A stretch of 64,000 nucleotides of DNA. Origin: Octopus vulgaris (lineage: Eukaryota). Of the stretch, positions 14,648 through 51,928 are shown in pieces (position 1 is the stretch's first letter; each line of letters opens with the position of its first letter). Position numbers and translations under genes: made by a program. The notes beneath the pieces were generated by a model, which was not told the DNA's origin, did not search any database, and saw only the letters and a list, made by a program, of their open reading frames with translations. Location: contig OX597815.1 of NCBI GenBank assembly GCA_951406725.2, positions 79,980,001-80,044,000 on the forward strand, written 5' to 3'.

Positions 14648-15329
14648 TACAAAGAGAAGTTAAAAATTACCCACACTTTTGCTATAACATATATTCATTA
14701 TCGTCACACTGCCTTCTGCGTATGCGTGCTTATAGTTGGTATTATTGTGGTTTTGTGATCGAAGTTTGAGCCTAATCGCACCATTTTTCTTTCTGGCATA
14801 GCCGCTGCACTAGCAAAGTGCACCAAAGAAGAACAAAGAGTAGTGATCCGATTTCTCTGGCAAAAGGGTATACGATTAACAGTGCAAGATACAGCTTTTT
14901 GCTGGCCAACAAACTGACACCAGCAATTCGCACCAAACACCAAAGCCTATTGATGAAGAAAGGTTTGTTGTTGTATGATAATGCACGCCCACACACAAAC
15001 GTACAGACCTTTGAAGCCATCAACCAATTGGGTTTTGAAGTGCTGGAACATTCTGCCTACAGCCCAGATCTCGACCCTTCTAACTATCATATCACTGGAC
15101 CGCTCATAGATGGTTTACGAGGTCGTTGATTTTCTACAGATGAAGATGTAAAGGAAGCGGTGCATAAATGGTTGCACGACCAACCGAAAACCTTCTTCTT
15201 GGAGGGAATTATGCAAGCTTGTGCATCGAAAGAGAAGGAGACTACATAGAAAAATGGCGTACTTTTTTGTCTCTTACTTTTGTGTAAATAGATTGGAAAA
15301 ACAAGAGTTCATATAATTTTTGACTTTCC

Positions 15330-16382: not shown

Positions 16383-16452
16383 CATACATGCATACATATA
16401 ATACATACATACAGTCATTATCTCTCTATCTATATATATATGTGTATATTCT

Positions 16453-16675
16453 CTTTACTCTTTTACTATTTTACTTGTTTCAGTCATTTGACTGCGGCCA
16501 TGCTGGAGCACCGCCTTTAGTCGAGCAAATCGACCCCGGGACTTATTCTTTGTAAGCCCAGTACTTATTCTATCGGTCTCTTTTGCCGAACCGCTAATTG
16601 ACGGGGGATGTAAACACACCAGCATCGGTTGTCAAGCAATGCTAGGGGGACAAACACACACAAACACACACACAT

Positions 16676-16714
<39 letters not shown>

Positions 16715-16846
16715 CATATATACGACAGGCTTCTTGCATTGGTCGGCCCGGGGCTATAGCAGAAGACACTTGTCCAAGATGCCACGCAGTGGGACTGAAC
16801 CCGGAACCATGTGGTTGGTAAGCAAGCTACTTACCACACAGCCACT
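16453..16846 (-). mobile_element. SINE family A
   Basis: Reverse complement of the family A tail, body and head. Confidence 0.9.
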
Positions 16847-17729
16847 ATACACATGTATAGAAGGAGAGGGGGGAGATAGATAGATAGATAGATAGATTAA
16901 GGATACTAGCAGATGAGCTTTAAGGAAATCTTAGAGTGGTACTTCTTCTGTCCATGTGATAGCGGATCTCATTAGGCAAACTGCAGGCGCTGGGACTAAC
17001 ACCAGATCAATGTTTTTCAGACTTTTTTTAGTTCACGTGACACAGCCGTACAGTTTCAGATTTTTGGAGATGAGAAGTTAGAAATTATACTGTGTGGCGT
17101 TTTGAGATCATGAAGAATATACGAAAAGGGAAACAACTCTAATCAGTACTTGAACACGAGTTCTATAACCAGTGGACGAGAAATTGTCTCTGCGAATTGA
17201 ATATTATAATTCACTCCATCAGGTATTACATCTATTTCTTCCGAGGCATGCGATTATCAAGAATATGCAAACATGAATGACGTAGAATGTGTAATAAGAA
17301 ATACTTGAAGATCGGCAAAAACCAAAGAAATGAAAACTGCTATTTACAAGTCGACTCTAAGGTTTGTTGCCTTTTATTGATGCTATTGGACTTCGTGAGT
17401 CCTACAATAAGTTGGAGTGTGAGAAATCCCACTGAAATTTCTTTTTTATGTAGTGCATTGCTAATTTGTACAATTTGCTGTTTAAAGCATTTGCAAGAAT
17501 GACTTCATCACTCAAAACAACCCCACAAATACAATTGAAAATTAATTTCCGAAAATAACAATCACACAGAATTTATGTATTTCGTAGTTATACTGAAATA
17601 ATTTTATTCCTGCAAACTAATTAGCGAGGGAGTTCAAAAATGGTGAAAGTGTTATATGTTGAGTGATAATGCATACAATGATACACAAGTATCATTATTT
17701 CTAATTCGAAGATACAAAGTAAAATTAAT

Positions 17730-18141
17730 TAGTGGCTGTGTGGTAAGTAGCTTGGTTACCAACCACGTGGTTCCAGGTTCAGTCCCACTGCGTGGCACCT
17801 TGGGCAAGTGTCTTCTACTATAGCCTCGGGCCGACCAAAGCCTTGTGAGTGAATTTGGTAGACGGAAACTGAAAGAAGCCCGTCGTATATGTGTATACAT
17901 ATATATGTTTGTGTGTGTGTGTATGTTTATGTGCCTGTGTTTGTCCCCCCAACATCGCTTGACAACCGATGCTGGTGTGTTTATGCCCCCGTCACTTAGC
18001 GGTTCGGCAAAGAGACCGGTAGAATAAGTACTGGGCTTACAAAGAATAAGTCCCAGGGTCGAGTTGCTCGATTACAGGCGGTGCTCCAGCATGGTCGCAG
18101 TCAAATGACTGAAACAAGTAAAAGAGTAAAAGAGTAAAGAG
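17730..18141 (+). mobile_element. SINE family A, near full length
   Basis: agtggctgtgtggtaag (A box), ggttcagtccc (B-box-like), ccttgggcaagtgtc, tail gactgaaacaagt(aaaagagt)n. Confidence 0.92.
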
Positions 18142-18273
18142 TATATATTTATATATATATACATACATACATACTTTATTTAAAAGCAGCAGAAATATAA
18201 CAAACATATTACTCTACCTCTGGTATTTAAGTACTCTTTTTTCCACCTTGTTTCACATTTATGTGCTTACTCC

Positions 18274-28609: not shown

Positions 28610-29007
28610 ATTATTGGTTCAAAATTTTGGAACAAGGCCAGAAATTTTAGTGGAAGGACGAGTCGATTACATTGACCTCTGTGCTCAACTGGTACTTATT
28701 TTATCGACCTTGAAAGAATGAAAGGTAAATTCGACTTCGGCGGTATTTGGATTCAGAATATATAGAGGACGAAATACCGATAAGCATTTTGCCCAGCGTG
28801 CTGACGATTCTTATTTCTTTACTACCCACAAGGGGCTAAACTCAGAGAGGACAAACAAGGACAGACAAACGGATTAAGTCGTTTATATCGACCCCAGTGC
28901 GTAACTGGTACTTATTTCATCAGAATTTGAACTCAGAACGTAACGGCAGACGAAATACGACTACGCATTTCGCCCGGCGTGCTAACGTTTCTGCCAGCTC
29001 GCCGCCT
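28610..29007 (-). mobile_element. Two adjacent/nested SINE family B-type copies
   Basis: Older copy 28610-28810 is cut at gctgacgattct by a younger copy 28811-29007 with tail tttctttactacccacaagggg. Confidence 0.8.
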
Positions 29008-30787: not shown

Positions 30788-31111
30788 GAGGCATTTATGC
30801 GGATAAACAAATTAGATACAATAAATATATTAAATATATTAAATATAATAGCTTGGGTATGAAATACAAAATATTTGTATATGTATACATTGAAAATAGG
30901 AAATAAGAGAAAGTAAAAGGTGGAAACTTTCAGATGATGAATTTTCAAGTATAAATATATAGATATTTATATTAAAAGGTCCAACTTACACAGAGTACAA
31001 ATGACAGAGAAAATTAAAGGGGTGGCAGAAAGGTTTCATAAGTCCAACAGCTGTTTCTGGGTGCTCGGAGATCAATAATAGTAGTTCATCTCAATATGTG
31101 GCCGTATGGAT

Positions 31112-31321
31112 GCGGCGAGCTGGCAAAAACGTTAGCACACCTCAAGAAATGCTTAGCGGTACTTCGTCTGTCTTTACGTTCTGAGTTCAAATTCCACCGA
31201 GGTCGACTTTGCTTTCATCTTTTCGGGGTAGATACATCAAGTACCAGTTGCATACTATGGTCGATCTAATCGACTGGCCCCCTCCCCCAAAATTTCGGAC
31301 CTTGTGCCTAGAGGAGAAAAG
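31112..31321 (+). mobile_element. SINE family B with degenerate TSD (aatatg..gccgtatggat)
   Basis: Family B head, body and tail; flanking direct repeat at ~31092 and ~31322. Confidence 0.88.
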
Positions 31322-31441
31322 AATATGCAGCCGTATGGATACAGTTAACATTGGATAAGACGAGCCTCCGTCATCAGGGTAGAGATCTATTTCAGATCTG
31401 AATGTGGACATATATTTGTATACATAATACTATAATACATA

Positions 31442-31866
31442 TATGAGGGCGTACTCAAAAAGAAACCAGAATTTTGTAATATTTTATTCACTTAGTTTTT
31501 CACGCGTTTACGCTTTTATCGCCTTCAAAGCACTCTCCAGTTGAAGCAATGCATCGGTCCAGACACATTTTTCGCTGTTTGAAGCAGTGTTGGAACTCTT
31601 GCGAAGTGATGACTTTTAACGCCTTCATCGTTTTTTCTTCACCTCTTCCACATCGGCAAATTCAGTAGCACCAGCTTTCGTCACCAGTGATGACCTTCGA
31701 AAAAAGGTGCGCATCAACTTCCAACTGTTCTTTCAGTTCACGACACGCATTCATTCGAGACTGCTTCTGATCTTCCGTGAGCAAGCGAGGTACTAATTTT
31801 TCTGTAACTCTTTTCATTCGCAATTGTTCACTGAAAATTGGATGGTAGAAGCTCCAGGACACACCA

Positions 31867-31923
<57 letters not shown>

Positions 31924-32315
31924 ACAAATTCGTCAAGTGTTCGGTGACGGTCCTCCAAGACCAGTTCATGCATTTTCATATTTTCATTCAACGAGGTTGG
32001 TCCTCAAGCGACAAATGACCATTCCTAAAGCGTGGAAACCACTCACAAACTAGTGTTTGGTTCATAGCATGTAAGCTGCTTGAAGCATGACAACTGTTTC
32101 GACTACCGTTTTCGCCAGCAGTAAACAGAATTTTACGGAAGCACGTTGTTCCTTCGTTTCAGCCATCGCAAAAATCGACGAAGATGTGAGAAGCACTGCA
32201 AAAAAAAGACGCACCACGTGGTGCCTGACGGTCGTATCAAGTGGCGGAAACCTGAACTACAACGAGCTTGTTTCACAGAGAGCGTTTCCAGTTACTTCTT
32301 GGATACCCCCTCGTA
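31442..32315 (-). mobile_element. Internally deleted mariner with both TIRs; (TA)n expanded inside the ORF
   Basis: LVLEDRHRTLDE..KLVPRLLTEDQKQSR..VITGDESWCY fused to the C-terminal FADVEEVK..RCIASTGECFEGD. Ends tatgagggcgtactcaaaaag and cttcttggataccccctcgta. Confidence 0.92.
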
Positions 32316-32327
32316 TGCATTTATATG

Positions 32328-32391
<64 letters not shown>

Positions 32392-32505
32392 AGTAGGTGA
32401 ATAAATTATCCTATGTTTATCGTCAGCATGGAAAATTCGAAACATATGTCGAGAGTAAATGAATTTTGTTAACATCTTCGTTCGACTCCATTCTTTCATT
32501 TATTC

Positions 32506-32620
<115 letters not shown>

Positions 32621-32774
32621 TATGCATGTGTATATGGATACATGTCGATATTTATGTGTTTTCAGTTACATACACGAATGTATATATCTGCCTGTATATG
32701 TATGCACAATACACATACACACAGGCAGATAGACACACACACACACACACACATATATATATTTCGTTTTAATT

Positions 32775-32965
32775 CTTTTATACTCTTGGTTCAGTCATTT
32801 GACTGCGACCATGCTGGAGCACCGCCTTTAGTCGAACAAATCAACTTTAGAACTTACTCTTTGTAAGCCTAGTACTTATTGCATCGGTCTCTTTTGCCGA
32901 ACGTAAACACATCGACATTGGTTGTCAAGTGATGGTGGGGGTGGACAAACACAAACACACAAACA
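32775..32965 (-). mobile_element. SINE family A, 3' half
   Basis: cagtcatttgactgcgaccatgctggagcaccgcc. Confidence 0.85.
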
Positions 32966-32967
32966 TA

Positions 32968-33042
<75 letters not shown>

Positions 33043-33574
33043 ATGTGTACGTGTACATGTATATATAGTCAACAGATGAGATCCAGAGATTCTCAGTATA
33101 GAAGACTGAATTTCTTTGCATTATGATTTGAAATGTAATATCATTTCTACCCTGATGACGGATGTTCGATTTATCTGATGTTGATTGCTTCCATTACGGC
33201 CGCATATTGTGATAAACAACATCTACCAACCTTATGATGGATCCCCGTGCCCCCAGAAACAACAGTTTTACTTATAACACCTTTCTTCCTCCCCTTTAAT
33301 TTTCTCTGTCACTTGTACTCTGTGTAATTTGGATCTATTAATATAAATACCTCTATATTTATACTCGAATATTCTTCGTCTGAAAGACTCTAGGAAGGGG
33401 ATTCCACATTAAGTTGGCACATTAAGTTAGCAACAAACCATCACTTTATCGTGCTGTTCCTGCATAAAACTCTGAGAGATTTGGAAATGCAATATTTCTA
33501 AGTTTGTAGATCAGTGAATTTATTTCATTTAAAATTCCATAAGTTTTCAACAGCGATTTAGCAAAGCCAAGCTA

Positions 33575-33789
33575 CTCCAGACTGGTGAAGAGCAACTACC
33601 CCGAAACTAATCTCTGTCTGCTGGTTTTGTTGGACGGAGGTGCTTATCTCCGCTGTTTGAAAACTTAAGGACCCAGAACGCTTGTGTCATTTAGCCAACT
33701 AGAAACGGTGTTTCTTGGGGCTAAATAGTAGTAGCATTCTTCCCTTTCCTGGGACTGTCACATTAAGTTGGCAACAAACCATCACTTTA
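33575..33789 (+). mobile_element. ~210-bp interspersed repeat (PLE pLTR-like); inverted partner at 35738-35950
   Basis: aaaacttaaggac.cagaacgcttgtgtc..tagccaactagaaacggtgtttcttggggctaaatag present in both orientations. Confidence 0.75.
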
Positions 33790-33821
33790 TATATATATAT
33801 ATATAAATATATATATATAAA

Positions 33822-33949
33822 ATTAATCAAAGGACATACTAAGTATGTCTACCTGCTTGAAATAACAGTCAAAACTCTTATCAAATCGCCAAAGAGTTTT
33901 GACTGTTATTTCCAGCAGGTAGACGTACTTAGTATGTCCTTTGATTAAT
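33822..33949. repeat. 58-bp inverted repeat (2 mismatches) with 12-nt loop
   Basis: 33822-33879 versus reverse complement of 33892-33949. Confidence 0.95.
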
Positions 33950-34081
33950 GTTAACCACTCGGCTATTTAATGCTATTTTGGGGCCTTCTATCTCCTGTGT
34001 CATTGATTCTGTTATTATCATTTTTAAAATAGTTACATTGGATAATAATAGAATTAGTGACACCTTCGAAAATTAATTTTT

Positions 34082-34130
<49 letters not shown>

Positions 34131-35371
34131 GTGTGTGTATGTGGTGTGTGTGTGTGTGTGTGTAGCTTATCGTGTATTGATAGGTGTACCATGTTGCCAG
34201 TGCATGTAGCGCTATACAACTTAACGGACCATTTTTAATCCTTAATCATAAACAGTTATAAGCCACTAATTCCCCCCCCCCCCGACAAAAGACATGCATT
34301 CTTTCCCTGTTGTAGATCTAAAGACGCTATGAACTACTCATATCAATTTCAATTTTTTTCTGCCCATAAACTGATGAAGACTTCTTTGTAGCCATTTTCG
34401 TTTAATCTAGTGTATATACTTCCCCGTTACGTGTGCTCTTGTCTTGAAACAAGAAATGAATATAATTTTGATATACATTAGTGGTCAATATGTTACATCT
34501 AAACTTTTGTTCAGTCTTCTTTGTTATCAATAAATTTATAAAAATAAGTGCGAAATCTAATTTAAGGAACTATAAATAGATGTTCTTGACTTGAAGTCAA
34601 TGCCGATAGTAAACATAGCCAAAAGTGTGTAATTTGACAAATGCCTGCTGTCTTCGTTGCTCTGTGACGTGCGTGGATGAGAAATAAAACTGTTCCTTGA
34701 TAGAAAAAACTAACCTATCAAGCGAGAGCAATTGAACCCAATATTGAACACCAACAAATTCCTTTTACAGTAGCAAATTTACAATCCACTACTATTCATT
34801 ATAGCAAGTAGATTCAGCCTCTGAGAATTAAGTGACTTCCTTCTTGACATATTACATCATCAACAAAGTTATCTGCTGTCACAAGAGAGATGTAAAGGAA
34901 CAATTATTTTTTCAATATGCTGAAAGTCTAATAACGACAAAAATCATTACCGCTAATCCTATATACGCTATTGAGATTTTTTATTATGGTTATTCGATCT
35001 GACGGGAATTTGTCACCTTATTTTATTAATAATATAAAATTATTCCCTGAAAAAAAAATGAAGTGAATTAGTTACTGCTGGAAAAACTTTTGATCATTGG
35101 TTTACTTTATCTAGGCTAACTTTAGTCTAAACATTAACAACAATAAAAACATCAATAATTAATAACAGATCAATTCGATCATATTAACTAGGAGAGTCTG
35201 TTTTGGACTTGGGACATAGGTGGATCTGAAACCAAAACTGCAAACGATTGATTCATACATTGATTACACATTACTTGTTAATTTCGTATTAATCTAGAGC
35301 TTAACGGATTGTACGAACGTCAACAACTACATTGCGTCTATGTCGTTATACTCCGATGATTTTATACTCAT

Positions 35372-35610
35372 ATACTCTTTTAATAGTTTCACTTGTTTCA
35401 GTCATTTGACTGTGGCCATGCTGGAGCACCGCCTATAGTCTAACAAATCGACCCCAGAACTTATTCTTTGTAAGCCTAGTACTTATTCTATCGGTCTCTT
35501 TTGCCGAACCGCTAAGTTATGGGAACGTAAACACACCAGCATCGGTTGTCAAGAGATGGGGGGGGGGGACAAACACAGACACACAAACATATACACACAC
35601 ATACACACAT
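35372..35610 (-). mobile_element. SINE family A, 3' half
   Basis: Match to family tail and body. Confidence 0.85.
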
Positions 35611-35628
35611 AAATAAATAAATAAATAA

Positions 35629-35674
<46 letters not shown>

Positions 35675-35676
<2 letters not shown>

Positions 35677-35950
35677 GGCATTACTTCACGTAAATGCCTC
35701 ACGCTATTAGGGATTCTTTACGTCAAAACTGCTCTAAAGTAAAGTGGTGGTTGTTGCCAACTTAATGTGTTAGTCCCAGAAAAGGGAAGAATGCTACTGC
35801 TATTTAGCCCCAAGAAACACCGTTTCTAGTTGGCTACACGACACAAGCGTTCTGTGTCCTTAAGTTTTCAGACAGGGGAGATAAGCACTTCCACCCAATA
35901 AAGCTAGTATCCAAACACTAGTGTCAGGGTAATTGCCTTTCATCAGCTGA
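35675..35950 (-). mobile_element. PLE pLTR-like repeat, inverted copy of 33575-33789
   Basis: Sequence similarity as above; minus strand carries CTGATGA at its 5' end. Confidence 0.7.
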
Positions 35951-36149: not shown

Positions 36150-37338
36150 CGATTAAGCAGGGTCCCTTGCACCCACCTTTCTTAATACAGCTTGTCATCT
36201 TTCCTCAAACACACTTCTCGACAGGATCCTCTTCTCCAGCCCTATCTTGCTCTTCAGATGATATCTGAAGTATTGTAGTAAACCAGGGTCAGAGATGAAG
36301 GACCCCGCCACGAATCCTTGTATCCTAGTTTTCCACACACATTATTTCAGTACTGCAACTGTACAGAAAAAAACATACCTCACTTTCCTTCGAGATTCCA
36401 GTTGGCGATACAATCTTTATTATACATTCAGCCGATAGCTGAACTCTTCCCAGATGCGACAACACGTGTTCGACGTAAATTATCAAGCCTGACAACTCCC
36501 GACAATGTATAAAAGCGTGCTGGATGGTTTCATCGTCCAGCCCACATCTTGGACATGTCGTTGGCACCGACATTCCGTGCCTGGATAACTTATCTCGAAC
36601 AGGTAAAGCGTTACTGTAACACTGCCAGGTCAGGGATTTTGGTTATTATCCAAATAACCTGACCTAAAATAACCTGTCATTCAGTCAGATTACGTCCTTT
36701 AAAGAAACCGGGTTTAAAACGTTTCAAGCTGGCTGGTCGCGGAAAGAATTCTCTGCCAGCGGATTCCACACCTTATCATCCTCCAGGTAACGCCAGAGAT
36801 GCCTCAGCCTCAACGCATGTCTGCGCATCATTAGCCAGGTCATCCCTAACCCACCCTTTAGCGATTCCTGACAGCAAGCGGAGCGCCTCACAAGCGGCTT
36901 TCCTCCCTTCCACAAGAAGCGTAAAAGGAGGCGCTCCAACTTGTTAAGCCTCGAATCAGGGCAAGGGACAACGGTCAAGCGTTAGGTGATGACAGATGCA
37001 ATAAACACCTGTACTACCTCCACCCTTTCTATCAAGGACAGAGCCCTTCCGGACCAAGTCCGTACTATCGCTTCCACCTTGACTGTCACATCGCTCCAAT
37101 TCTTCTCCGTCTGGGAGTCCTGTCCAAACCAAACTCCAAGCAACTTAACAGGACCATCTGTCCAGTGCCCCTCGACACTGGACTATATCGACTTGCTCCT
37201 CCAGGTGCCGAGGCGCGAGCCGATGGACTTGTTCTTGTTAACTTTTGCCCCTGCCACCGCCTCGTGTCCTCTGATAGCCTCCTCTATACGAGGTAGCTGA
37301 GCCTCATAGGACACGATGATGGGGACGTTATCCGCGTA
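36150..37338 (-). mobile_element. 5'-truncated Tx1/L1-clade LINE ORF2 relic (RT C-terminus, thumb, zinc knuckle)
   Basis: YADNV (YADD-like), GAKVNKNKS, VKLLGVWFG, RFLWKGGKPLVRR..KGGLGM, CPRCGLDDETIQHAFIHC. Confidence 0.92.
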
Positions 37339-42955: not shown

Positions 42956-43380
42956 AGGCGCATGAGTGGCTGTGTGGTAAGTAGCTTGCTTACTAACCAC
43001 AAGATTCTGGGTTCAGTCCCACTGCGTGGCACCTTGAGCAAGTGTCTTCTACTATAGCCAATTGTGAGTGGATTTGGTAGACGGAAACTGAAAGAAGGCT
43101 GTCGTATATATGTGTGTGTGTGTGTGTGTGTGTGAGTGTTTGTGTTTGTGTGTGTGTGTGTGCTTGCGTGTCTATGTTTGTCCCCCTAGCACCGCTTGAC
43201 AACCGATGTTGGTGTGTTTACGTCGCCGTAACTTAGCGGTTCGGCAAAAGAGGCTGATAGAATAAGTACGAGGCTTACAAATAATAAGTCCTAGGGTCGA
43301 TTTGCTCGACTAAAGGCGGTGCTCCAGCATGCCGCAGTCAAATGACTGAAACAAGTGAAAGAGTAAAAGAGTAAAAGAGA
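42956..43380 (+). mobile_element. SINE family A, full length
   Basis: Family match. Confidence 0.92.
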
Positions 43381-43899
43381 TACACACACACACTACACAG
43401 CCGAAAGATCTCGCTGGAGATCCAAACAGGGAACTAGAACTCAAAACATGAGAATGTAATATATTTTATTCATAAACCGCTGATGTTTCGTGCGTTAAAA
43501 TCTGCCAACGCACGAAAAGCACGTGCGTGTATATGCATGCTTGCATACGTACATACATACATACATACATACATACATACATACATACATACATACATAC
43601 ATACATACATACATACATACATACATGTGTGTGTGTCTGGTGACCATAGCTCTTTGCATAAGCTTTACGGTTACTCTGGAATTCCAGACGTACATCCTGT
43701 GACAGGAATATTCCCACTCTTTGATGACGTTTGGTAGCCAATATCTGCGATGGAGCTTTATATATACATGTGAATATATGTGCTTGTATATATGTGTGTG
43801 TAAGCGTGAGTGCGTGTAAACAGTGAGTGTATAATGAATGCAGACAGTTAATTTCTTAGTGAGCTATTTGCTTACTTCCGGAAGTCCTATGAATGATTG

Positions 43900-44308
43900 A
43901 CTCATTTACTCTTTTACTTGTTTCAGTCATGTGACTGTGGCCATGCTGGAGCACCGCCTTTAGTCGAGCAAATCGAACCCAGTACTTATTCTTTGTAAGC
44001 CTAGTACTTATTCTACCGGTCTCTTTTGCCGAACCGCTAAGTTACGGGGACGTAAACACACCAGCATCGGTTGTCAAGCGATGTTGGCGGGTACAAACAC
44101 AGACACACAAACATATGCGCACACATACATATATATTATACATATATACGACAGGCTTCTTTCAGTTTCCGTCTACCAAATCCACTCACTTTGGTTGGCC
44201 CGAGACTATAGTAGAAGACAGTTGCTCAAGGTGCCACGCAGTGGGACTGAACCCGGAACCATGTGGTTTGTAAGCAGGGTACTTACCACACAGCCACTCC
44301 TACGCCTA
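43900..44308 (-). mobile_element. SINE family A, full length
   Basis: Family match. Confidence 0.92.
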
Positions 44309-48342: not shown

Positions 48343-48576
48343 TGACACACGCTTTGTACGAACGTACGTATATTTGTCCATGTGCACTTTTACCTATATA
48401 TTTATTAATTATCATACATATACACACATCCATCCAGCAATTAACTGGAGTGGCTGTGTGATGAGAAGCTTGCTTCCCAACGACATGGTTCCGGGTTCAG
48501 TCCCACTGCGTGGTACCTTAGGCAAATGTGAAAAACATCCATAAGCTATATCTACAGAAATAACAATAGCCCCCTG

Positions 48577-49881
48577 GGATCTTTTCTATTCTGAAGCCAG
48601 TTTTTTCAAATTTTTCCTACTGAACCAAACAATTTGAAACTTCGTATACTGGTAGAATGTGTCAAAAGTAAACTTAATTGTAAACCAGAATGAAAACGGA
48701 ATTGTAACTTCTAAGTTTAACGTTGTTTAATAATTAGAATTTTAACCAATGATATTCCGTTATTCGGCTTTATTTTATTTACTCCGTCTCGACCACCAAT
48801 TTCGTGACGTATTAGACATCTTAAATGTAAACAAGCTATAGTCAGCCACCTTCTAATAACAAAAGTTTGTCTTTGAAGTTACCGTCTAGGGGAAGCATTG
48901 ATGTACATGTGTGTGTGTGTGTTTGATGGGGTGTGGGAGACAGCATGTTGTGTAAGTGAAGTGCTTCTGTTAGTGTGTGTGAAGAGACAGAGAGAGTAAT
49001 GTGTGAAAGAGAGAGATAACTGAAATTTTTTACTCGGTGTATGTGTATATGTATGTCTGCATGTATGTGTGTGTGTATGTATGTGTAAGTATGTGTGTGT
49101 GTGTATGTATGTGTGTGTGTGTATGTATGTATGGCCGATTCATCGTAATTACGATGAATCGGCCATACATACATAGATACATACACACACACACATACAT
49201 GCAGACATACATATACACATACACCGAGTAAAAAATTTCAGTTATCTCTCTCTTTCACACATTACTCTCTCTGTCTCTTCACACACACTAACAGAAGCAC
49301 TTCACTTACACAACATACTGTCTCCCACACCCCATCAAACACACACACACACACACACACATGTACATCAATGCTTCCCCTAGACGGTAACTTCAAAGAC
49401 AAACTTCCCTCGTCATAAAATCGCTTCCTCTTAGTCTCTTTCGCTCTCATTACTTATGTAAAAAAATAAAAGTTTTTTACGGAAATCGACGGAAAACTTG
49501 TGCTACGACAAGCGAAACTTCGCCGAAATTTAATATTAAAAAAGCAAAGAGCTGGCAGAAACGTTAGCACGCCGGGCGAAATGCGTAGCCGTATTTCGTC
49601 TGCCGTGTTTGTTTACAGTTTTCCGAACGTTAGTACGTCACAAAAGCGCTTTCTACGTCACACTAATAGAATGCAGTCAAGTTTTACACATGAAAACAAA
49701 CAATCTGATTGGTTAAAATTCGCAGTTTTAATCTACGATTAAAGTCATAAAATAGATTTTTCTCAAATAAACTAGTTCCAACCTGTGTCTTGTTTTGCTA
49801 GACTCTATCAGCATACGAAGTTTCAGATTATTTAGTTAAGTAGAAAGATCTGTGGTCCTGGCTTCAGAATAGAAAAGATCC
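48577..49881. mobile_element. Non-autonomous TIR DNA transposon with 8-bp TSD (Merlin-like)
   Basis: Perfect 24-bp TIR ggatcttttctattctgaagccag (48577-48600) / ctggcttcagaatagaaaagatcc (49858-49881); TSD gccccctg at 48569-48576 and 49882-49889; imperfect subterminal inverted similarity. Confidence 0.88.
48863..49406. repeat. ~540-bp spacer-less palindrome
   Basis: Centre ...ggccgattcatcgtaa|ttacgatgaatcggcc at 49148/49149; arms match out to aagtttgtctttgaag / cttcaaagacaaactt. Confidence 0.95.
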
Positions 49882-50699
49882 GCCCCCTGTCGTAAATGTT
49901 TTAGAAATAAGTGTACAATATTGAATCCAATGAATTTGAATAGATTTCTAGTAATTTCACTGTTGACTATACAGAGGTTTGCTATTGCAGTATCAGCTAC
50001 ATAACAATTGGGCCTATCACCTGGTATCTTAACTACAGTGGAGTGAAAATGTAAATGACACTAAATTCTAGTAAACGGAGATCTTAAATATGAGGGATTG
50101 ACAATTGTAAGAAAAGATACATTCAGTTTGTAGTGAAAATGAACGGATTGAAAATAGAACTAGTTCAACATAACCAGGCGAGGAGGAGAATAATTTCGAA
50201 CACAATATTGTTTTTGTTGTTTAGTCCGAAGTTAACTCTGATCAAAGGCTATTTCAACCATAATTAGATGGGCCATTTTCTGCTGTTTTACAGACGGAGT
50301 ATATCAAAGATCGCTTCATGCCAACCAACGGCCCCTATTTTTTTAAGGAAACTGAGTTACTATTTCTTATAGATCGAACGCTTTGTGAGATAGTATCAAT
50401 CATTCCATAGGAGGCAGTCATATGTCTGTGTTTAAGAAGTTACCTTCTTAAATACACAATCCTGAGTTCCAGTTAAGTGCCCAGCAAATTATACAAGTGC
50501 CTTTCATGATATGCTCGAGTCGACGCAAATTTCAGGAGTGAAGTTTGGTAAACGGAAACTGGACAGAAGCCCGTAGGATGGACTGCTCAAGTTCTTGTGT
50601 GGTAATCTTCATCCGTCACTCAATATGACATTTTACTACTAATAGCAACAACAGCAGTACCACCACCACCACCACCACCACCACCACCACCACCGTCAT

Positions 50700-51635
50700 C
50701 AATGAAGTGGGTGACCGGGCATGCCTTCAGTCTGATCTACTGGCTGTCATCCAATGGGCAGAAAAGAATAATATGCTGCTGAACAAGGACAAATTTGAAT
50801 TAATCCACTTCGGAAAAGAGGATACTCTGGAATTCCTATACTTCCTTCCTTTAGGTGAAATTCTCGTGGCATCCAACAACATTGGAGACTTGGGAGTAAT
50901 TGTGGACAATAACATAAGCTGGGCCGCTCATATAAACAGCACTGTTGGTTTGGCCTGCAGAATGTGTTCCTGGATTCTCAGAACTCTCTAGTCAGATATC
51001 TACACCATTATCCTTCTCTTCTCCACTTTTGCCAGACCCCACCTTGGATACTGTTGTCCTTGTAGTCTCCCCACACGAAACAAAGTATCATGGAAGTTGA
51101 AGCACCTCAAAGTCAATTGCATAAAAGATAGATGGCTTGACAGGCCTTGACTATTGGGGTCGGCTAGAAAAGTTCAAGCTTTATTCTCTCCAACGCCGCC
51201 AAGAGTGCTACATCATCTGCATGATGTGGAAAATATTCTATCAGCTTTGGCCAAACGACGTTGGCACCACCTTTAAGATACACCCAAGACTCGGGCCTCG
51301 TGCTATCCACCCACAACACAAATCATACTCGCATCACATAACAGCAATACTGCACAATTGTTTCACGTCAATTTGCCCCGCTCTCTTTAACCTTACAGCA
51401 AAACACATTAAAGCAGAGACAGACCCCATAAAGTTAAAGAAGTCTTTGGAAAAATTCCTTCAAAAAATCCCGTATAAACCTCCTACACCTGGATATATCT
51501 CCGTAAACAATAACTCCCTACTCGAGTGGGCTATGGTTGTCCGATTTCTGATTTGAATGACTTTGCCAGGTGGTGCTATTCAGTTAGACATGGACTCAGC
51601 CAATACTGCCGAAAACTATCAAAATATCAAAGTAA
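50700..51635 (+). mobile_element. 5'-truncated CR1-type LINE (RT C-terminus and 3' UTR)
   Basis: LQSDLLAVIQWAEKNNMLLNKDK, DLGVIVDNNISWAAHI, RPHLGYCC, LDYWGRLEKFKLYSLQRR; short tandem tail tatcaaa. Confidence 0.9.
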
Positions 51636-51814: not shown

Positions 51815-51928
51815 AATGTACACGTCGCTGATTGGTTAAAATTACCAAAATACGACAACTTTAACAGGAAATAACTTCTAAAATAGGAAATTTTGTCAAA
51901 AATGTCGAAAGTAAAGCGTGTTCAGCGT
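51815..51928. mobile_element. Subterminal fragment of the TIR transposon family (also 54270-54464)
   Basis: tacacgtcg.tgattggttaaaattacc..aaataacttct..aaagtaaa.cgtgttca shared. Confidence 0.7.

What the first reader, a model, noticed from the sequence alone, without database searches (positions are those of the whole stretch)
48569..49889. TIR transposon with 8-bp TSD enclosing a ~540-bp spacer-less palindrome (nested fold-back element)
Seen: perfect 24-bp TIRs beginning GG, exact 8-bp TSD gccccctg, weaker subterminal inverted similarity (gaaacttcgtat / atacgaagtttc; tttaaccaat / attggttaaa) and an internal palindrome 48863-49406 with no spacer. The arms differ mainly in microsatellite length and at least one substitution (cagcatg vs catactg). 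Known: 8-bp TSDs with GG termini fit Merlin/IS1016 better than hAT or P. Long spacer-less palindromes are normally unstable because they form cruciforms and hairpins. Inference: either a fold-back family whose consensus includes the palindrome, or a copy-specific hairpin-repair product. If transcribed it would give ~260 bp of dsRNA, a potential ADAR or siRNA substrate in a lineage known for heavy A-to-I editing.
Basis: partly seen in the sequence, partly recalled or inferred. Interest (0 to 1): 0.8.

Follow-up and report, generated by a model that had tools for sequence, protein, structure and literature searches.

The report
Octopus transposon carrying a mirrored insert
This is a real, gene-less, recently inserted octopus DNA transposon, likely of the Merlin group, whose inside is a patchwork of other common repeats, one of them present twice in mirror image, likely through a self-priming copying error; this is a known kind of structure unless the mirror image proves to travel with the whole family.

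Summary
Observation confirmed: perfect 24-bp GG-ended TIRs (48577-48600, 49858-49881), exact 8-bp TSD, and a spacer-less palindrome at 48863-49406 centred at 49148|49149. The outer inverted repeat is really about 260 bp (71% identical). Public contigs of one close relative show the right end is a multi-copy family and the site is empty there, so the insertion is young. The palindrome is not a nested fold-back transposon: it has no TSD, and its right arm runs on, past the palindrome border, as part of a roughly tenfold more abundant repeat (B), also seen in an independent Octopus vulgaris gene model. The left arm is an inverted copy of part of B. A SINE-head fragment inside is a family feature. 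Best reading: a non-autonomous Merlin-type element with captured filler, one piece duplicated by snap-back. Merlin membership rests on the ends only; no partner transposase could be linked. Whether the palindrome is private or family-wide, and whether independent reads cross its centre, could not be tested. No transcription or editing was shown, and molluscs reportedly lack an endo-siRNA pathway. Modest interest.

The parts
48569..48576 (.). left 8-bp target-site duplication
   Evidence: identical to 49882-49889
48577..48600 (+). left TIR, perfect 24-bp core, begins GG
48601..48835 (+). left extended imperfect inverted repeat (whole end about 260 bp, 71% identical to the right end)
   Evidence: score 102 against shuffle maximum 43
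48836..48862 (.). 27 bp unassigned, up to the abrupt junction with the left arm
   Evidence: sequence; no TSD found
48863..49148 (-). left palindrome arm: inverted, outwardly truncated copy of part of repeat B
   Evidence: B continues natively on the right side, not on this side
49122..49175 (.). perfect 54-bp central palindrome (17 non-microsatellite bases a side), no spacer
49149..49406 (+). right palindrome arm: microsatellite-rich part of abundant repeat B
   Evidence: summed contig depth about 11 times that of the outer element's right end in run X3
49407..49524 (+). continuation of repeat B beyond the palindrome (common form diverges near 49495; a minor form matches to 49524)
   Evidence: P0121 reads across 49406|49407 to about 49495; depth drop and X3 record 10
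49525..49548 (.). 24-bp A-rich linker, unassigned
   Evidence: sequence
49549..49609 (+). doubly truncated head fragment of an abundant SINE (OK-type name recalled); family feature of the outer element, here with a 10-bp deletion after 49606
   Evidence: 96-98% identical over 58 bp to copies at 29000 and 39512; X13 record 3 explained exactly by window SINE copies
49609..49857 (-). right extended imperfect inverted repeat
   Evidence: identical high-depth contigs in X3 and X13
49858..49881 (-). right TIR, perfect 24-bp core
   Evidence: X13 record 8 matches 49753-49882 and runs on into other flank
49882..49889 (.). right 8-bp target-site duplication
   Evidence: the only flank contig in X3 aligns from exactly 49882 and does not carry the TIR

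Best explanation
This is a 1,305-bp gene-less DNA transposon with GG-ended inverted repeats and an 8-bp target duplication, likely moved by a Merlin-type transposase encoded elsewhere, and its internal palindrome is a mirror copy of part of a second, more abundant repeat, likely made by self-primed (snap-back) DNA synthesis rather than by insertion of a fold-back transposon. Step 1 (shown): long imperfect ends with perfect 24-bp tips and an 8-bp duplication mark a cut-and-paste insertion. Step 2 (shown in one relative): the right end is multi-copy and the site is empty there, so the insertion is young. Step 3 (inferred from the ends): the mobilising enzyme is a Merlin/IS1595-type DDE transposase acting in trans. 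Step 4 (shown): the interior is a patchwork of repeat B and a truncated SINE head; the SINE piece is shared by other family copies, so it was taken up before the family spread. Step 5 (inferred): the pieces were captured by template switching during gap repair or fork restart. Step 6 (inferred): a 3' end in the B segment folded back on a short hairpin, copied about 285 bases of B backwards, then switched to the element's left end; a 4-base self-complementary loop would read as 'no spacer'. Step 7 (shown as differences, inferred as cause): microsatellite slippage has since made the arms asymmetric 27 bp from the centre, which would limit cruciform extension.
For: Ends and TSD. Multi-copy right end: X3 summed depth 15,892-128,081 over 49627-49890 against 48.2 in the flank, one identical 105-bp contig at depth 10,000, and X13 record 8 with another flank (depth gives an order of magnitude only). 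Empty site: the single X3 flank contig (1537 letters) aligns 49882-50100 only, with at least 575 further letters that are not the TIR, and no second contig adds depth in the flank. Merlin definition met for ends and TSD; Merlin abundant in O. bimaculoides and recently active in O. vulgaris (2 families, 11 insertions). B is separate and more abundant: arm and 49396-49494 depth about 10 times the right end in X3. An O. vulgaris gene model, CAI9742457.1, reads from the arm across the right palindrome border with the same 2-base shortening that 56% (X3) and 91% (X13) of contig depth shows. Both arms carry the 2-base-longer allele and differ by 2 of 250 columns, whereas listed B contigs differ from this copy at 3-6 of 66-86 letters, so the arms have one origin. 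No TSD round the palindrome: best 5 bp, off the junction. SINE junction: 17 + 10 + 3 = 30 letters accounts exactly for where X13 record 3 starts, with a 3-base overlap at the join. Precedents: gap-filling and FoSTeST capture in animal TIR elements (PMC8277862); fold-back inversions from 3-4-nt-loop hairpins (PMC7467729).
Against: No transposase was linked to these ends. Long TIRs of 100-500 bp are also typical of MULEs. The extra letters of the empty-site contig were not shown to match the left flank. The head-to-head arms with a palindromic junction and a one-sided extension also resemble Penelope inverted pLTRs. Arm-to-extension depth is 1.2 in X3 but 4.9 in X13, so the two runs disagree on how often the arm occurs without its extension.
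Confidence: 0.5

Rival explanations
1. Repeat B, or the subfamily of the outer element, is natively palindromic about this centre. The palindrome was captured or inherited ready-made and may be amplified in many copies.
For: The centre is 17 unique bases a side with no spacer. One capture from a palindromic donor would explain both truncated ends. The arms have had time to gain 3 microsatellite length changes, while about 290 bp of the right end match abundant contigs with 0 substitutions. Palindromic transposon consensus sequences are known (Xenopus Harbinger).
Against: Arm-only doubling is not the norm in X3 (depth ratio 1.2), though a fully palindromic B would also give about 1. Two substitutions between the arms against none to the family contigs is not a significant contrast. 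No centre-spanning peptide appeared among 130 representative hits or in two word-based searches, but only one B-derived protein was found at all, so this is weak.
Confidence: 0.25
2. The inner structure is a Penelope-like retroelement stump: two head-to-head pseudo-LTRs made by self-priming during retrotransposition, one with a tail, inserted into the DNA transposon.
For: PMC3846280: inverted pLTRs of about 180-220 bp, palindromes at the inverted junction, and an optional tail on one arm. O. vulgaris has 30 recently active Penelope families. B depth drops sharply near 49495 and P0121 diverges there.
Against: No TSD longer than 5 bp round any candidate end, and no exact hammerhead core (recalled motif) on either strand. 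No hammerhead family among 35 and 4 Rfam rows. The extension is 89-118 bp against a 31-bp tail in the cited example. One X13 contig leaves this copy at 49524 with letters that resemble this element's own TIR tip, which points to a DNA-transposon relative.
Confidence: 0.15
3. The palindrome is an assembly or library fold-back chimera inside a real transposon copy.
For: Centre and left junction unconfirmed by independent data; spacer-less palindromes are a known artefact class (own knowledge).
Against: The inversion is closed on both sides by correct element ends and an exact TSD, which needs two switches. The arms differ by a clean substitution in unique sequence and by three microsatellite length changes, which a same-molecule chimera would not readily give.
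Confidence: 0.07
4. The outer element is a MULE-type (or hAT-type) non-autonomous element rather than Merlin. This concerns the outer family only and can hold together with any inner explanation.
For: The roughly 260-bp imperfect TIRs fall in the MULE range of 100-500 bp, and cargo capture is typical of Pack-MULEs. hAT makes 8-bp TSDs. Mutator and hAT each have 21 recently active families in O. vulgaris against 2 for Merlin.
Against: MULE TSDs are given as 9-11 bp; here 8. hAT TIRs are 5-27 bp and usually start (T/C)A (recalled); here GG. All three end features match Merlin.
Confidence: 0.25

Closest known systems
Merlin superfamily non-autonomous elements (Feschotte 2004, as summarised in PMC8101967)
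   Same: GG termini, TIR length within 24-462 bp, 8-bp TSD, perfect tips extendable with mismatches; Merlin is abundant in Octopus
   Different: No transposase linked; interior is foreign repeat fragments with a 544-bp palindrome, which the passages read do not describe
Animal Pack-TIRs made by gap filling or FoSTeST (PMC8277862)
   Same: TIR ends enclosing captured fragments, short microhomology at one junction, multi-copy spread after capture of the SINE piece
   Different: Cargo is other repeats, not host gene sequence; an inverted duplication of the cargo is present
Palindromic Harbinger repeat of Xenopus tropicalis (PMC5625713)
   Same: A DNA transposon able to fold on itself into long dsRNA if transcribed
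   Different: There the palindrome is the family consensus and hyper-editing is shown; here neither is shown, and the near-perfect hairpin is internal
Penelope inverted pLTR insertions (PMC3846280)
   Same: Head-to-head arms of a few hundred bp, palindromic junction, one arm extended
   Different: No TSD, no hammerhead core, longer extension, no linked RT-endonuclease ORF found
Fold-back inversions from short-loop hairpins in yeast (PMC7467729)
   Same: Inverted duplication centred on a hairpin with a minimal loop
   Different: Here only about 285 bp long and embedded in a transposon; mechanism inferred, not observed

Membership tests
Merlin | TIRs of 24-462 bp | tested here: met
   24 bp perfect, about 260 bp imperfect; definition
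Merlin | terminal 5'-GG | tested here: met
   both ends
Merlin | 8- or 9-bp TSD | tested here: met
   8 of 8 at this one locus; empty-site contig starts at the first TSD base
Merlin | DDE_Tnp_IS1595 transposase in an autonomous partner with the same ends | not testable with these tools
   no genome held; the two longest stop-free frames in the element have no Pfam match; the TIR start is not in an octopus nucleotide record among the passages shown from the PMC8101967 supplements
MULE / Pack-MULE | 9-11-bp TSD | tested here: not met
   8 bp; definition
MULE / Pack-MULE | TIRs of 100-500 bp | tested here: met
   about 260 bp, 71% identical
hAT | 8-bp TSD | tested here: met
   definition
hAT | short TIRs (5-27 bp) starting (T/C)A (the start letters are recalled) | tested here: not met
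   ends start GG and extend about 260 bp
Nested fold-back transposon | own TSD round the palindrome | tested here: not met
   best direct repeat 3 bp at the palindrome border, 5 bp at any tested end
Nested fold-back transposon | arm ends are the ends of the repeat family | tested here: not met
   repeat B continues past 49406 in other copies
Nested fold-back transposon | palindromic centre present in the family consensus | tested here: inconclusive
   centre skipped by the read tool; peptide proxies blank but insensitive
Pack-TIR | captured non-TE host sequence between TIR ends | tested here: not met
   the identified cargo is itself high-copy repeat; 27-bp and 24-bp pieces unassigned
Penelope inverted pLTR stump | head-to-head inverted repeats with a palindrome at the junction | tested here: met
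   description
Penelope inverted pLTR stump | short tail on one arm | tested here: inconclusive
   89-118-bp one-sided extension against 31 bp in the cited example
Penelope inverted pLTR stump | hammerhead core in the pLTR (recalled; not universal) | tested here: not met
   no exact core on either strand; no Rfam hammerhead row
Penelope inverted pLTR stump | same repeat adjoining an RT-GIY-YIG ORF elsewhere | not testable with these tools
   no genome held

The most novel reading that the evidence does not exclude
The whole 1.3-kb unit, palindrome included, is the consensus of a young Merlin-type family with hundreds of copies. Octopus genomes would then be seeded, at presence/absence-polymorphic sites, with a self-contained 250-bp dsRNA cassette flanked by inward-facing CCAAT- and CRE-like motifs. 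That would be a natural experiment on how new hairpins create ADAR editing sites and how long spacer-less palindromes survive in an animal germ line.
Probability: 0.3. Interest if true: 0.5.

Novelty: new member of a known kind. Interest (0 to 1): 0.27.

Why it matters
As a single copy it is an ordinary product of transposon turnover in a genome that is about two-thirds repeats. It is a tidy example of cargo capture and inverted duplication inside a Merlin-type element. It would matter more if the palindrome is family-wide: insertion-polymorphic hairpins would let one test directly whether a new transposon insertion creates A-to-I editing clusters in cephalopods, as the palindromic Harbinger repeat does in Xenopus, and how quickly microsatellite slippage defuses a long palindrome.

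Tried and rejected
No whole genome is held for this window, so copies could not be aligned. Raw-read runs X21 and X22 were uninformative: 3 and 5 reads laid of 12.9 million each, far too few even on the SINE, so they gave no depth or junction data. No RNA holder was listed on record; run X13 is only guessed to be RNA, and its lack of A>G rows in the arm is not evidence on editing. Only 4 of the 24 listed runs and only 49132-50100 were laid. Collection scans with short element patterns: viral contigs 4 scans, 1 match; metagenome contigs 2 scans, 2 matches (27, 29); genome contigs 2 scans, 0 matches (30, 39). All 3 matches are confined to the 20-base pattern, so chance. Rfam: 35 and 4 rows, all below gathering score, mostly microsatellite-driven miRNA or snoRNA look-alikes. 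Pfam on 148 of 193 non-low-complexity frames of 55 aa or more (487 in all): 1 hit, zf-RVT at 36328-36642, and no host-gene domain; this does not exclude a large intron. Protein proxies: one search gave 0 hits among 8000 candidates; one search gave 130 hits, of which only P0121 is a true B copy; one search found only P0121 itself; one search found one low-complexity protein. The sigma-70 promoter scan is irrelevant to an animal and was at background. Earlier-findings look-ups by sequence and place were empty. Dating the arms at the rate quoted in PMC13282606 gives about 1 My with a 95% range of about 0.1-4 My, too wide to order palindrome and insertion. Rejected: 9-bp TSD; two independent B insertions in opposite orientation (arms too alike, share a minor allele, abut with no spacer); siRNA source.

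Full report
Observation. The described structure is present. There are perfect 24-bp inverted tips at 48577-48600 and 49858-49881 beginning GG, and an exact 8-bp duplication outside them. The tip pattern occurs only twice in the window and never in 100 shuffles. The subterminal similarity is a continuous imperfect inverted repeat of about 260 bp: 175 matches, 71 mismatches and 35 gap columns, score 102 against a shuffle maximum of 43, significant in each of three sub-blocks (0, 0 and 1 of 1000 shuffles reach the score). The palindrome spans 48863-49406 with its centre at 49148|49149 and no spacer. The arms are 286 and 258 bp, with 248 identical columns, 2 substitutions and microsatellite length differences of 8, 26 and 10 bp. 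It folds as one hairpin as DNA (z = -51) and as RNA within the whole element. The two longest stop-free frames in the element have no Pfam match. The host is an octopus: a copy of the internal repeat is annotated in O. vulgaris. The species of the window was not determined.

The outer element is a young, multi-copy transposon. Of 24 runs listed, 20 hold part of the stretch, under 4 organism labels and 10 studies. I laid 4 of them on 49132-50100. The two raw-read runs gave 3 and 5 reads and are uninformative. In the contigs of X3 (another organism label; 2 differences in 219 bp of flank) the unique flank has depth 48.2, while the element's right end has summed depth 15,892-128,081, including a 105-bp contig identical to this copy at depth 10,000. 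The tool warns that summed depth is not copy number, so I read this only as 'hundreds of copies'. The one contig over the flank is 1537 letters long, aligns from exactly 49882 (the first base of the duplication) to 50100, and has at least 575 further letters that are not the TIR. This is what an empty site looks like, although those letters could not be compared with the left flank. In X13 a contig matches 49753-49882 without difference and runs into other flank.

Family assignment. PMC8101967 (passages; supplements searched) defines Merlin by 24-462-bp TIRs, terminal GG and 8-9-bp TSDs, and reports 191 Merlin-like proteins in O. bimaculoides. MULEs have 100-500-bp TIRs but 9-11-bp TSDs (PMC3310237, passages). 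hAT has 8-bp TSDs with 5-27-bp TIRs (PMC2874221, passages). The three end features are met for Merlin; the transposase link could not be tested. I put Merlin at about 0.7.

The interior is a patchwork. First, 49549-49606 is a 58-bp piece of a SINE head, 96-98% identical to window copies at 29000 and 39512 and cut at both ends. X13 record 3 (158 letters on 49590-49737, no substitutions, 10 gap letters, depth 128, similar to the right-tip contig at 107) starts exactly 30 letters before the first non-SINE base if the SINE piece is 10 letters longer and overlaps the long TIR by 3 bases, which is how the window's SINE copies continue. So the SINE piece belongs to the family, and this copy has lost 10 bp. 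Second, the palindrome arm and 49396-49494 have about 11 and 10 times the depth of the right end in X3: they belong to a separate, more abundant repeat, B. B runs across the right palindrome border: contigs show gaps at 49398-49401, and P0121, an O. vulgaris gene model found among 130 hits, reads from the arm through 49407 to about 49495 with the same 2-base shortening, then diverges where depth falls from 596k to 69k. Both arms here carry the longer allele, which 56% (X3) and 91% (X13) of depth lacks. They differ from each other at 2 of 250 columns, whereas the listed B contigs differ from this copy at 3-6 of 66-86 letters (these are the tool's longest rows, not a random sample). There is no target duplication round the palindrome or round any of five candidate right ends (best 5 bp). 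Hence the right arm is native B, the left arm is an inverted copy of part of it, and the palindrome is not a nested TIR element.

Mechanism. Inferred: capture by template switching, as proposed for animal Pack-TIRs (PMC8277862, passages), and a snap-back on a short hairpin, as in yeast fold-back inversions with 3-4-nt loops (PMC7467729, passages), followed by a switch to the element's left end. A self-complementary 4-base loop would read as zero spacer. The arms are perfectly symmetric for only 27 bp a side before a mismatch and 10- and 26-bp bulges. Longer, more identical, spacer-less palindromes are the most fragile, and the human genome still has 718 near-perfect ones over 200 bp (PMC7999016, passages), so persistence is not astonishing. 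A natively palindromic B or subfamily (0.25) therefore stays open. So does a Penelope-type inverted pLTR stump (0.15), a lead taken from earlier finding e1-7858806 and checked against PMC3846280 (passages): the geometry fits, but TSD, hammerhead core and tail length do not. An artefact is unlikely (0.07) because the inversion is closed by correct ends and the arms carry clean differences. Against my reading, the arm-to-extension depth ratio differs between runs (1.2 and 4.9), and a single X13 contig suggests a B form with a TIR-like end.

RNA consequences. If transcribed, the unit would give about 248 bp of duplex with a 132-bp perfect helix. Transcription was not shown, and no host-gene domain was found in 148 of 193 frames scanned. 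PMC5625713 (passages) reports that 4.4e-3 of octopus loci can form long near-perfect dsRNA and that a palindromic Harbinger family is the most edited repeat in Xenopus, so the concept is established; this window itself has several inverted repeat pairs. PMC12479628 (passages) finds no dedicated endo-siRNA pathway in molluscs, O. bimaculoides included, which undercuts the siRNA idea.

Novelty. Searches of the held library found no description of this element or of a fold-back family in cephalopods; other papers in those and further listings were seen as listings only unless named above. Repbase, Dfam and the O. vulgaris library could not be seen and may hold these families. Earlier finding e1-7141006 reports Merlin MITEs with repeat cargo in another genome (unchecked). 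Verdict: a new member of a known kind, interest 0.27. The family-wide palindromic cassette remains possible at about 0.3 and would deserve about 0.5.

Noticed in passing
window 48737-48750 / 49708-49721 and 48805-48811 / 49634-49640: Within the 71%-identical long ends, a 14-bp block holding a CCAAT box and a CRE-like heptamer are perfectly kept on both sides, facing inward (motif names recalled). They could be promoter or transposase-binding sites.
   Followed up: no
window 51828-51843: 16-bp exact match to 49705-49720 (the CCAAT block) inside another stretch; possibly a fragment of a related element.
   Followed up: no
run X13, loose end behind 49524: One contig leaves this copy at 49524 and goes on with 30 letters ending like this element's TIR tip; a minor form of repeat B may be a sister TIR family.
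   Followed up: partly
runs X3 and X13, joint 49604 to 49549: Contigs hold the SINE head in head-to-tail tandem with about 10 letters between (depth 850 and 427), so a SINE-head tandem unit exists elsewhere in these genomes.
   Followed up: no
window 16419-18173, 33582-35946, 43182-44091, 30927-33386: Several inverted pairs of dispersed repeats, 85-91% complementary over 150-196 bp, lie within 0.6-2.2 kb of each other: dsRNA potential is common in this window.
   Followed up: no
window 48447-48529: A SINE head (OR-type name recalled), with more than ten copies in the window, stops 39 bp before the left TSD and does not resume after the element.
   Followed up: partly
window 36328-36642 (-), 50629-51556 (+), 14776-15129 (+), 31662-32003 (-): Decayed coding fragments: zf-RVT hit at 36328; the others look by eye like LINE reverse-transcriptase and mariner-transposase remnants but have no Pfam match at E 0.001.
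   Followed up: no
P0121 (CAI9742457.1): An O. vulgaris 'hypothetical protein' is largely a translation of non-coding repeat B, so probably a spurious gene model.
   Followed up: partly
runs X21, X22: These share the species label of the best holder yet gave almost no reads even on the abundant SINE; unexplained (label, content or filtering).
   Followed up: no
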